This document shows, in pieces, positions 54,001 to 57,000 of a stretch of 64,000 nt of DNA (positions within the stretch are counted from its first letter, which is position 1; every line of letters starts with the position of its first letter). Location of the stretch: positions 1 to 64,000 of the forward strand of contig JABIHA010000074.1 of NCBI GenBank assembly GCA_018649885.1, in the 5' to 3' direction. The position numbers were made by a program. This DNA comes from Bacteriovoracaceae bacterium. GTDB taxonomy: Bacteria > Bdellovibrionota > Bacteriovoracia > Bacteriovoracales > Bacteriovoracaceae.

Positions 54001-57000
54001 CCAAATGAGTCAAAGTGCTTCTGGCTACAAAATCAAAAATTACCCTTACTTTCCTGGCTCACTTGGCAATTGGGCAGGAAAAGAAAGAAATATTCCTGTT
54101 TACACTCTTGAGCTTCCAGACTCTGATAATCGAAAACATAAAAAATACTGGGAGCTTTTTCAGCCAGCTATTGAGGCCGCCATTAATAAAGACTTAAGGC
54201 ACCCCAAAAAAATCAAGAAAAACAAATTAGTTCAACGCAGTTTTTAAGCTGATTCCCCTTTAGGCATTTTAGGTAATTTAAAAACCATGATAATGGGGAT
54301 AATCAGAAAAATTGCACCCACAATATAGGGGGCACCAGAACCGCCTCTCCAGTAAAGTAGGCAAGCAAGAAGAGGACCAAAAACTCTCGCCAAGGCCCCA
54401 AGGGATCTAAAAACTCCAATGGCCTCTCCTTGATATTTACCGGGAGTGTATAGACTCACAAGAGATGTCAAACAAGGGATAGTCATAGCAGAGCCAACCG
54501 CTAAGAAGAAAAGTCCTAGAAAAAGTGGAAATGTTGTATGGGCAAAGCTTATAGAAAGCAAACCGGGAATTAAACAAACAAGTCCCATTAAGGCCATCTT
54601 TTTTTCTCCTACTTGATGGGCCTTTCTTCTTACAACACCACCTTGAACAAAGGCCAAAACAAAGCCTATAAAAATAAACATCCCGGCATTATCAAGAGAT
54701 GTATATGACAGTCTTTCAACGGCCAAAAATGTCAAAGTGAATTCCATTCCAGAGAAGGCCAATAAAAAGAGAAAGTGAGCAATATTTGTTTGGTTAACAC
54801 CAGCATAAGGCAGTGGTTTAAATAAGGTCAAAGGATTAGAAGAGCGTTTACTTTTGTGAATCTCTTGGTCATTTGTAGGTCTTGTTTCCTTAAACTTTTT
54901 ATATAAAAGACTAAAGCTTGCAAGACTAAGGATAAAACTTAAAAGAGCAGGAGTTGAAAAAGGATTGACTCCATATGATGCCAATTGAGGGAAACTTTTC
55001 GTAAGATCAATCATAGAGAGTATCCCTCCCATTGCTGGTCCAATAATAAATCCAAGCGCAAAGGCAATACCAATGAAGGCCATACCTTTTGAACGATTAC
55101 TAGAACTGGTTACATCGGCAACAACAGCTGTAGCAGTTGAAATATTACCGCCCATAATCCCACCCATTATTCGGGCAATACATAACAGAGTGAATGAACC
55201 TGAAAAAAACCAAAGCAGATAACTTAAGGCCAGTCCCATCACGGAAACCAGAAGTACCGGTCTTCTACCTATACGGTCTGAAAGCCTGCCCCAAAAAGGC
55301 GCTGCTAAGAACTGTAGAAAAGAGTACATCGCCCCTAGCACTCCTCCAAAGAGAACGACAGGCTGAACTTGGCCACCACCAGATTGAATCAAAGTGGTGA
55401 TTCCTTCAAAAATCATTTTCAAAAAAGGATTTCCAGCATCAACTTCAAGGTAATATTTTGCCATTGCTGGGAACATGGGAAAAATTATTGAAAATCCCAC
55501 TAAGTCTAAAAATAAAACAAAGAAGATGAGTTTTAGAGAACTTTTTGCATTTTCACTAAGTGGTGGAGATTCTACTTTTTGCTTAGGCATGATTTTTGTC
55601 ACTTCGCTTTCTAAAGGTTGATATTCTAAGTTTTGAGGGTCCCCGTCACCTTCCAATCGTGATACAAGGTACTCCCCAAACTCTGTGCTAAATTTTTCAT
55701 CACTATTTAAACATGGAATTAAATGGATTTGAGCCCCGTCCTCTTTGACAAATTCAGCTAGCTCAAATCCTATCTCATCAATAGTTTCAAGACAGTCCAC
55801 AACAAAGCTTGGACAATAAACGTAAATATTTTTGTGCCCTGTAGCTGCCAGATCCCTGCAATACTTATCGGTGTAAGGGCCCAACCACCTCTCTGAGCCA
55901 AAACGTGACTGGAAAGTCATGTGGATGTCTTTTTCTTCAAAAATGCTGAGGAGCTCCTGCTTCATGAGATAAAACGTCTCACTACAGTGAAATAAATAGG
56001 GGTCACCCTTTTCTAAAATTCTTCTAAGCGGTATCCCATGAAAAGAAATCACTAGAACATCGCCAGGACACTTGTTCGCAGCTGCCTTTTTTATGATGCT
56101 GACACTTGCATCGATAAAGGCCTTAGTTTTATGAAAACTGGAAATAAATCGAATGTCACTAAGAGCGACTTTTTTATCTAAAATTGAGCTGATCCTGTCC
56201 CAAACACTTCCAGTTGTACTTTCTGAAAACTGGGGAAAAAGTGGAACTACAGTCAAACAATCAAACTTCTCAAGGTCTGCCAAGCTCTGCTCAACTAAAT
56301 TGTTTCCCAGCAAGTAGCCCACCCTTAACTGGATCCCATCGCGCTCCATGACCCCGGCCAAGGAGTGCCTTAAATCTTCAGTACCAGTAATAAGAGGAAA
56401 GCTTTCGCCGTCCCAAATACGAGCGTAGGCCTTAGCAGATCTTTTTGGCCTAAAGGGCAATACAAACAGCTCAAGGATGATTTTCCATAGTATTGGGTTT
56501 AAATCAACGACTTTAGGATCTGAGAGAAATTTTCGAAGAAAATCTCTAACATCTTTGATGCTTGGAGATTTGGGAGACCCCAGTTGTACTAATACAACTA
56601 GATCATTTTTTCTCACTTTTGGGCCCCCTCACTGACTAGATGCACAACAAACTTTACTTTTACTCTTTGGCAGGGGTATATATACGCGATCTTTCAAAGC
56701 GTGTCACTTATTAGCTGATGTAAATCAGGAGCTTACAATGGCCAAGTCCAATATTTCTAAGAAAAAAAAGCAAGCGGGCCTTGAGCGCATGAGCGAGTTA
56801 TCAAAATTGGGCTCAGCTTCGACACTTTATGAAACAGAGTATGACCCAGAAATATTAGAGAAATTCGAAAATAAGAACCCGACCGCACCAGGATGGGTAA
56901 GCTTTGTCTGCACAGAGTTCACTTCTCTTTGCCCAATTACAGGTCAACCTGATTTCGCCAAAATTTTTATTAATTATATTGCCGATAAAACTATGGTTGA

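What a model noticed while it worked through the whole genome (the two positions that open the first line are those of the whole stretch)
54244..56616. Ferrochelatase fused to an MFS transporter, a family-wide trait
The only ferrochelatase (g01823, 790 aa) is fused at its C-terminus to a complete major-facilitator transporter of the TetA/SLC75A1 type, linking heme synthesis to a membrane exporter. The fusion is typical of Bacteriovoracaceae.
Evidence so far: Pfam Ferrochelatase 7-310 plus MFS_1 364-786; 34% to bovine SLC75A1; sole ferrochelatase row. Full-length match in 16 of 24 family genomes (one flagged with a stop in the match); in a sister-family genome (G025) the two genes are adjacent but separate; other families match only one half per place. 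Ferrochelatase motifs (SFHGIP, SRFG, DCLETIDE) conserved in 6 aligned fusions.
(Added by a program. Inside this text positions count along the whole contig: contig position 1 is position 1 of the stretch shown here. "Call 12" and the like, gene names such as g00115 and contig names such as C1 are that model's own, and its searches are not shown. The text may have been shortened before it was handed on; [...] marks where a part breaks off. The agent that wrote the report below was given it as the finding of a first reader that could run no searches.)

Follow-up and report, generated by a model that had tools for sequence, protein, structure and literature searches.

The report
Heme enzyme fused to MFSD10-type transporter
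In this group of bacteria, and in a few unrelated ones, the last enzyme of heme synthesis is joined to a membrane transporter that is a close bacterial relative of the poorly understood human transporter MFSD10, which hints that both may move heme or its precursor.

Summary
The fusion is real: one 790-aa frame with an intact ferrochelatase (7-310) and a 12-helix MFS (355-786). It is the genome's only ferrochelatase. It is fused in 123 of 151 near-complete genomes of the class, and also occurs in Lentisphaera profundi and in Planctomycetota and Verrucomicrobiota MAGs.

The transporter is not TetA. It belongs to the MFSD10/TETRAN (SLC75A1) clade (E 3e-62, Z 48.8 to 6S4M). In my trees eukaryotic MFSD10 groups with ferrochelatase-fused transporters (100/98), although a sister position to all fusions is not rejected (AU p 0.10).

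The halves can separate. Seven near-complete relatives lost the ferrochelatase and ALAD but kept the transporter, and all seven keep an O2-type heme-copper oxidase. Four that lack both the pathway and the transporter have none. So it is not simply an exporter of newly made heme.

Best reading (0.45): a proton-coupled porphyrin/heme efflux valve tethered to ferrochelatase. Rivals: unrelated cargo or membrane anchor (0.25), heme import (0.15), metal import (0.12). The substrate is inferred, not shown. Ten literature searches listed no paper on this fusion.

The parts
54244..56616 (-). Ferrochelatase-MFS fusion gene, 790 aa (GTG start)
   Evidence: junction bridged in 4 runs
55687..56598 (-). Ferrochelatase domain (residues 7-310), protoporphyrin type by pathway context
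   Evidence: Pfam PF00762; TIGR00109 over cut-off; HemJ and HemN-like genes present, ChdC not found
56038..56040 (-). His193, aligned to the catalytic His of human ferrochelatase (SFHG motif)
   Evidence: alignment; 171 of 171 fusions; catalytic role recalled
55786..55788 (-). Glu277, aligned to human Glu343 (DCLE motif)
   Evidence: alignment; 171 of 171 fusions; catalytic role recalled
55555..55650 (-). Linker, residues about 323-354, ending in a conserved SPPLS-like motif; remnants begin the stand-alone MFS genes of relatives
   Evidence: span N304-D371 is 58-87 aa, median 67
54259..55554 (-). 12-helix MFS transporter of the MFSD10/TETRAN clade (residues 355-786)
   Evidence: trees
55363..55482 (-). 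Two-helix insert between TM1 and TM2 (about residues 379-418), shared with MFSD10 and not matched by generic TetA-like MFS
   Evidence: generic Bdellovibrionota MFS matches nearly all start after it
55504..55506 (-). Asp371 in TM1, invariant; candidate proton-coupling residue
   Evidence: 171 of 171; role inferred
54742..54744 (-). Glu625 in TM7, invariant; aligns with NorA Glu222
54406..54408 (-). Arg737 in TM11, clade-specific (Gln in 75% of TetA-like rows); candidate carboxylate-binding residue
   Evidence: role inferred
56738..57271 (+). queF, divergent neighbour; marks the conserved site, not part of the system
   Evidence: in 29 of 29 top fusion loci, but also beside ferrochelatase-only genes

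Best explanation
A membrane-anchored two-function protein. The N-terminal cytoplasmic domain inserts Fe2+ into protoporphyrin IX (PPIX). This step is well supported by family, invariant residues and pathway context. The C-terminal MFSD10-type domain is a proton-coupled antiporter (inferred from motifs) that removes surplus PPIX and/or free heme from the membrane-cytoplasm interface next to the enzyme (cargo inferred). It would act as a porphyrin overflow valve that matters in aerobically respiring cells. That would explain why it is kept by respiring relatives that scavenge heme instead of making it, and is mostly lost in lineages without an O2-type heme-copper oxidase.
For: The fusion is old and kept. 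It occurs in three named phyla. Fused ferrochelatases form one clade against 11 stand-alone ones (100/99), the identities of the two halves co-vary (Spearman 0.81, 57 proteins) and linker length is constrained. One Planctomycetota MAG carries the Bacteriovoracaceae-type fusion whole. Antiporter features: motif A, motif C-like GPxxGG (motif names recalled), D371, R482, and E625 matching NorA E222. Human MFSD10 is classed as DHA1 and proposed to efflux organic anions and NSAIDs (PMC8154325, PMC6550788, passages); PPIX is a hydrophobic dicarboxylate, and the clade has an invariant TM11 Arg. Precedent: the DHA-family MFS PefA effluxes heme and PPIX in a respiring heme auxotroph and is conserved in such organisms (PMC2858704, passages); HatT is an MFS heme exporter (PMC6303022, passages). 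Retention: among ALAD-negative, pathway-lacking genomes at least 90% complete, 7 of 7 with the MFS have an O2-type oxidase and 0 of 4 without it do (Fisher p 0.003, overstated because kin are not independent).
Against: No transport data exist. There is no conserved His in the transporter. Stand-alone members in Opitutales sit behind a coaD-like gene (45 of 80 loci), with hem genes nearby only sporadically (hemB in 2 loci, a PPO-like gene in 2). The halves are separable both ways. Ferrochelatase alone remains at the site in G057, G024, G080, G065, G027 and G037. The MFS stands alone, with a displaced ferrochelatase elsewhere, in G102, G072, G009 and G092. G054 and G027 (and G088, 84% complete) have an oxidase and heme synthesis but no copy. 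G042, G014 and G057 have cytochrome bd without it. The oxidase correlation may only reflect lifestyle. Calling COX1 hits O2-type or NO-reductase-type rests on score and frame length, not on a tree.
Confidence: 0.45

Rival explanations
1. The transporter carries something unrelated to porphyrins (a generic organic anion or a CoA-related metabolite). The fusion persists because it anchors ferrochelatase to the inner membrane, or because it is harmless.
For: Stand-alone relatives are linked to a coaD-like gene rather than hem genes (coaD label from reading the sequence). The MFS survives loss of the whole pathway. Either half can be lost. No heme-ligand His.
Against: A neutral fusion would not be expected to persist in three phyla with a constrained linker and transfer as a unit. 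The ferrochelatase already has a hydrophobic N-terminal segment (residues about 36-55). Loss of the MFS tracks loss of the oxidase.
Confidence: 0.25
2. The transporter imports heme or PPIX from the periplasm (for example from digested prey), feeding PPIX to the attached ferrochelatase and supplying heme when synthesis is lost.
For: All 7 near-complete pathway-lacking MFS keepers have an oxidase and so need heme. G041 (97% complete) and G038 (99%) have no FecCD-family permease, and an HmuT-like query found no clear match in 4 of 5 tested.
Against: Antiporter-type motifs and the NorA-like acidic residue point to efflux. Four of six auxotrophs have a FecCD-family ABC system of undetermined cargo. 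Auxotrophs with cytochrome bd manage without the MFS.
Confidence: 0.15
3. The transporter imports a metal: Fe2+ for the attached ferrochelatase, or Cu for heme-copper oxidase assembly, like CcoA/CalT or YhjE/YdiM.
For: Presence tracks heme-copper oxidases: 16 of 16 MFS-positive genomes tested have one, and 8 of 12 MFS-negative near-complete genomes lack an O2-type one. MFS metal importers needed for such oxidases exist (PMC10588857, abstract; PMC6362234, search listing).
Against: CalT motifs are absent: MxxxM in TM7 in 0 of 171, HxxxM in 1 of 171. The invariant TM11 arginines fit anions better. The closest structure is an organic anion transporter.
Confidence: 0.12
4. The MFS salvages queuosine precursors with the neighbouring queF, and the fusion to ferrochelatase is incidental.
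For: queF is adjacent in 29 of 29 top fusion loci and in stand-alone MFS loci. An MFS can carry preQ0/preQ1 (PMC11130926, abstract).
Against: queF stays when the MFS is lost (L042, L043, L082-L085). It was not found near the fusion in G044, G068, G005, G308 or the Planctomycetota locus, or in any Opitutales locus. It is divergently transcribed.
Confidence: 0.03

Closest known systems
Human MFSD10 / TETRAN / SLC75A1 (PDB 6S4M, TC 2.A.1.2.73)
   Same: Best sequence hit (E 3e-62) and best structure hit (Z 48.8, rmsd 2.0 A over 403 residues, 34% identity). Shares the TM1-TM2 insert, D371, E625, R737 and R744. Groups with the fusions in trees.
   Different: MFSD10 is a stand-alone eukaryotic protein reported at the nuclear envelope (PMC6550788), with no enzyme domain and no described heme link in the listings I saw.
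Protoporphyrin ferrochelatase HemH/PpfC (TIGR00109)
   Same: Over the equivalog cut-off; active-site residues invariant; pathway has HemA, L, B, C, E, N-like and J and no ChdC found.
   Different: Carries a whole 12-helix transporter at its C terminus. Other ferrochelatase extensions I recall (not from a call) are the single-helix CAB domain and CpfC-ChdC fusions.
PefA (S. agalactiae) and HatT (C. difficile), MFS heme/PPIX exporters
   Same: MFS porphyrin efflux; PefA is a drug:H+ antiporter kept in respiring heme auxotrophs, the same pattern as here.
   Different: They are stand-alone, heme-regulated and Gram-positive. I did not compare their sequences with this protein; this is a functional analogy only.
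MacAB-TolC PPIX efflux in E. coli (PMC4263509, abstract)
   Same: Shows that Gram-negative cells need to expel PPIX when iron insertion lags.
   Different: ABC pump, not linked to ferrochelatase.
TetA/NorA DHA1 drug antiporters
   Same: Fold, motif A, motif C, TM7 glutamate.
   Different: Far below all Tet cut-offs; they lack the insert and the TM11 Arg; separate clade (100/100).

Membership tests
Ferrochelatase HemH/PpfC | Score over the curated family cut-offs | tested here: met
   PF00762 270 against 27; TIGR00109 217.9 against 124.6
Ferrochelatase HemH/PpfC | Catalytic His and acidic path (human H263, D340, E343) | tested here: met
   H193, D274, E277, E281 in 171 of 171
Ferrochelatase HemH/PpfC | Protoporphyrin route (coproporphyrinogen and protoporphyrinogen oxidases present, no ChdC) | tested here: met
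   HemJ found, two HemN-like radical SAM genes, ChdC not found in 5 of 5 genomes
Ferrochelatase HemH/PpfC | Fe2+ insertion activity | not testable with these tools
   needs an assay
MFSD10/TETRAN (SLC75A1) clade | Best hit in both directions | tested here: inconclusive
   Forward: best PDB hit by sequence and structure. Reverse: the fusion cluster is the top non-eukaryotic structural row for a tunicate MFSD10, but archaeal clusters rank first by language-model features
MFSD10/TETRAN (SLC75A1) clade | One clade with eukaryotic MFSD10, apart from TetA-like MFS | tested here: met
   100/100 for insert-bearing against TetA-like; 99/97 for fusions plus eukaryotes; holds at 94/92 without the insert columns
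MFSD10/TETRAN (SLC75A1) clade | TM1-TM2 helical insert and TM11 Arg | tested here: met
MFSD10/TETRAN (SLC75A1) clade | Organic anion efflux | not testable with these tools
   needs a transport assay
Tet(A)-family tetracycline exporters | Score over the NCBIfam cut-off | tested here: not met
   158.6 against 475
CalT/CcoA copper importers | MxxxM in TM7 and HxxxM in TM8 | tested here: not met
   0 and 1 of 171; motifs from the listing of PMC6362234 and PMC8406296
PefA/HatT MFS heme exporters | Sequence orthology and a heme-sensing regulator next door | not tested
   sequences were not in hand; no MarR or TetR-type gene among the neighbours scanned

The most novel reading that the evidence does not exclude
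Eukaryotic MFSD10/SLC75A1 descends from the transporter half of a bacterial ferrochelatase-MFS fusion (closest to the Planctomycetota-type fusions), and the whole clade, the human protein included, transports heme or protoporphyrin. That would give a physiological substrate to a human transporter whose transport has hardly been analysed, and would show a one-chain enzyme plus porphyrin transporter in bacteria.
Probability: 0.3. Interest if true: 0.92.

Novelty: new variant of a known kind. Interest (0 to 1): 0.75.

Why it matters
Databases name these roughly 800-aa proteins simply 'ferrochelatase', so the transporter half goes unremarked. The fusion is a strong clue to cargo for the MFSD10 clade, whose human member has a crystal structure but only a proposed anion-efflux role. 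It also points to an unrecognised way for Gram-negative bacteria to handle porphyrins, and shows repeated loss of heme synthesis among relatives of predatory bacteria that still respire. Cultured carriers exist (Halobacteriovorax marinus SJ CBW26948.1, Lentisphaera profundi WP_274149753.1), so the idea can be tested directly in E. coli and in MFSD10 knockout cells.

Tried and rejected
Assembly artefact: rejected. TetA and CalT membership: rejected. queF link: rejected as positional synteny. G308 as the pre-fusion state: rejected by nesting.

Complex prediction of the two domains as separate chains gave no verdict (score 0.00, controls not folded); it is no evidence either way. Whole-protein pTM was 0.76 against 0.57 in the Atlas model, so domain docking is unresolved.

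No RNA holder was listed. The promoter and terminator scan was at chance level. The MFS-only homologue search timed out. The class search around G463 returned only G463, so the spread in Planctomycetota was not counted. The metagenome scan with P0128 gave one partial fusion locus and otherwise stand-alone ferrochelatases. Neighbourhoods of the Hydrogenedentes-type stand-alone MFS (P0127, P0129, P0138), which lie inside the fusion clade, could not be obtained.

Earlier scan findings: none. Literature: searches listed nothing describing the fusion or an MFSD10-heme link. I saw listings and abstract starts for most hits, no supplements were opened, and most subscription papers are not held.

Full report
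OBSERVATION. The window holds one open frame of 790 codons at 54244-56616 on the minus strand. Pfam gives Ferrochelatase at 7-310 and MFS_1 from 364. NCBIfam hemH passes its cut-off, and no Tet model comes near its own. It is the only PF00762 match in the 92%-complete genome. Contigs from four public runs of four studies cross the junction without a difference. The AlphaFold model (pLDDT 86.9) shows a ferrochelatase fold, a linker of about 30 residues, 12 transmembrane helices and two extra helices between TM1 and TM2. With the usual N-in MFS topology (established knowledge), the enzyme faces the cytoplasm.

HOW WIDESPREAD. All 120 best homologues listed are full-length fusions, 56-61% identical apart from the query itself. 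The named ones are mostly Bacteriovorax, Halobacteriovorax or Bacteriovoracaceae and are annotated only as ferrochelatase. In a sample of 120 family genomes, 79 give a full-length match and 6 more span the junction at a contig end. Among the 151 class genomes at least 90% complete, 138 have the transporter and 123 have it in a frame of at least 620 aa. Of the other 15, four are at contig ends, one (G407) has a stop in the linker, and ten are stand-alone (G009 judged by frame length only). Other Bdellovibrionota families gave only generic MFS matches of 33-42%, which nearly all begin after the insert. A search with a divergent fusion found the same architecture in Lentisphaera profundi (WP_274149753.1), a Planctomycetota MAG (MBF0197893.1), a Verrucomicrobiota MAG (MEN9362198.1) and about 40 unnamed clusters. 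A second Planctomycetota MAG carries a Bacteriovoracaceae-type copy in a different gene order, which suggests transfer as a unit if the contig is binned correctly. Fused ferrochelatases form one clade against 11 stand-alone ones (100/99; a thin outgroup), and the identities of the two halves co-vary. A single origin fits.

THE ENZYME. H193, D274, E277, E281, W244 and R56 are invariant in 171 of 171 fusions and align with the human active site (the catalytic roles are recalled). The genome has HemA, HemL, HemB, HemC, HemE, two HemN-like genes and HemJ; ChdC was not found. So this is the protoporphyrin route and the domain is its working last enzyme.

THE TRANSPORTER. Its best solved relative is human MFSD10/TETRAN: E 3e-62 against 1e-10 for NorA, and Z 48.8, rmsd 2.0 A over 403 residues, against 42 for the next entries. 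The 150 best cluster representatives mix eukaryotic MFSD10 (named: Styela clava, Ichthyophonus hoferi; the rest assigned by clade) with insert-bearing bacterial proteins from Opitutales, Hydrogenedentes and Leptospiraceae. On 45 chosen rows, eukaryotes are sister to the Planctomycetota-type fusions: 98/97 under LG+G4, 100/98 under C20, 94/94 without the insert columns. They sit inside a clade of mostly fused transporters (100/98, 99/97, 94/92). AU tests reject eukaryotes outside all insert-bearing bacteria (p 0.010) and eukaryotes with the stand-alone bacterial copies (p 0.007), but do not reject eukaryotes as sister to all fusions (p 0.103). Caveats: the groups were named after seeing trees, sampling was seeded from the query, and archaeal clusters that rank first by features for a tunicate MFSD10 were not included. 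In that same reverse search the fusion cluster is the top non-eukaryotic structural row. Conserved polar positions are D371, R482, E625 (NorA E222), Q658, R737 (Gln in TetA-like rows) and R744; there is no conserved His. Motif A and a motif C-like stretch (names recalled) point to H+ antiport.

NATURAL EXPERIMENTS. G049, G041, G012, G038, G064, G116 and G389 (all at least 90% complete) and G022 (88%) keep the MFS at the queF site with its own start codon and a linker remnant, but have no ferrochelatase and no ALAD. UROD is also missing in all of these except G389, where it was not tested. In the MFS tree they fall in several places, so the enzyme half was dropped more than once (G116 and G389 not in it). 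All have a strong COX1-family match that I read as an O2 reductase from score and length. Pathway-lacking genomes without the MFS (G034, G052, G042, G057; also G014, 87%) have none or only an NO-reductase-like hit. G423 and G425 lack ALAD but have the full fusion, and I set them aside as probable assembly gaps. Of 13 MFS-negative near-complete genomes, G308 has a diverged adjacent copy, eight lack an O2-type oxidase, G070 and G111 lack both halves despite ALAD and UROD (probable gaps), and G054 and G027 are true exceptions. All 16 MFS-positive genomes tested for COX1 have it; I tested only 16. Against a simple heme-need rule, G042, G014 and G057 have cytochrome bd without the MFS. G041 and G038 have no FecCD-family permease at all, which keeps import alive as a rival. 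In Opitutales the stand-alone gene follows a coaD-like gene in 45 of 80 loci, with no steady hem link; this is the main result against a clade-wide porphyrin role.

MECHANISM. Shown: the architecture, an intact enzyme, clade membership and the retention pattern. Inferred: antiport direction, porphyrin cargo and any coupling. The most economical account is a valve that clears PPIX or free heme at the site where iron is inserted. E. coli expels PPIX when iron is short (PMC4263509, abstract). The drug:H+ antiporter PefA does this in a respiring heme auxotroph and is conserved in such organisms (PMC2858704, passages). HatT is an MFS heme pump (PMC6303022, passages). MFSD10 is listed as an organic anion transporter that may belong with SLC46 (PMC5627054, passages), confers NSAID resistance (PMC8154325, passages), and its transport 'has not been directly analyzed' as of PMC6550788 (passages). 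FLVCR proteins were first called heme transporters and later found to carry choline (PMC13484576, passages), which is a reason for caution. I give efflux 0.45, unrelated cargo or anchor 0.25, import 0.15, metal import 0.12, queuosine precursor 0.03.

NOVELTY. Both halves belong to known families, so this is a new variant of a known kind. Ten searches listed no description of the fusion or of an MFSD10-heme link; the library lacks most subscription papers and I opened no supplements. The value lies in the clue to cargo for a human transporter and in a directly testable bacterial model. Interest 0.75.

Noticed in passing
L042 (G057:C80), ferrochelatase at 3954-4952: G057 (96% complete) keeps a stand-alone ferrochelatase but lacks UROD and ALAD; it looks like a PPIX-salvage state. 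It has cytochrome bd.
   Followed up: partly
L081 (G308:C2), 8632-10799: A 0.9 Mb, 96%-complete sister-family genome keeps ALAD, UROD, ferrochelatase, the split and diverged MFS, and COX1 despite strong reduction.
   Followed up: partly
L044 (G102:C14), 5613-10153: Genus g10 has a separate hemE-hemN-hemY-like-hemH cluster with an unrelated ferrochelatase that replaced the fused domain; the MFS stayed at the old site.
   Followed up: partly
L237 (G407:C80), 3241-5790: Stop codon in the linker, with the MFS restarting about 12 bases later: a recent fission or a sequence error.
   Followed up: no
P0123, linker region: A Lentisphaera-type fusion has a CC..HCxxC motif in the linker, possibly a metal or Fe-S site.
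   Followed up: no
L242 (G000:C30), 169-2659: The HemA-like gene is only about 306 aa and is followed by a 533-aa HemC with a C-terminal extension without a Pfam match (possibly HemD); a two-component pair sits inside the hem cluster.
   Followed up: no
L214 (G003:C1): An HmuTUV-like ABC operon with a HutZ/HugZ-like gene lies in a genome that also has the fusion and full heme synthesis.
   Followed up: partly
window 53117-54247 (+): MpaA-like M14 peptidase converges on the fusion, with the two stop codons overlapping by 4 bases.
   Followed up: no
window 49922-51901 (-): PilZ plus sigma-54 activator protein, with similar genes near this locus in many relatives.
   Followed up: no
L091-L156: Opitutales MFSD10-like genes follow a coaD-like gene, with pgsA- and pgpA-like genes divergent (labels from reading the sequences).
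   Followed up: partly
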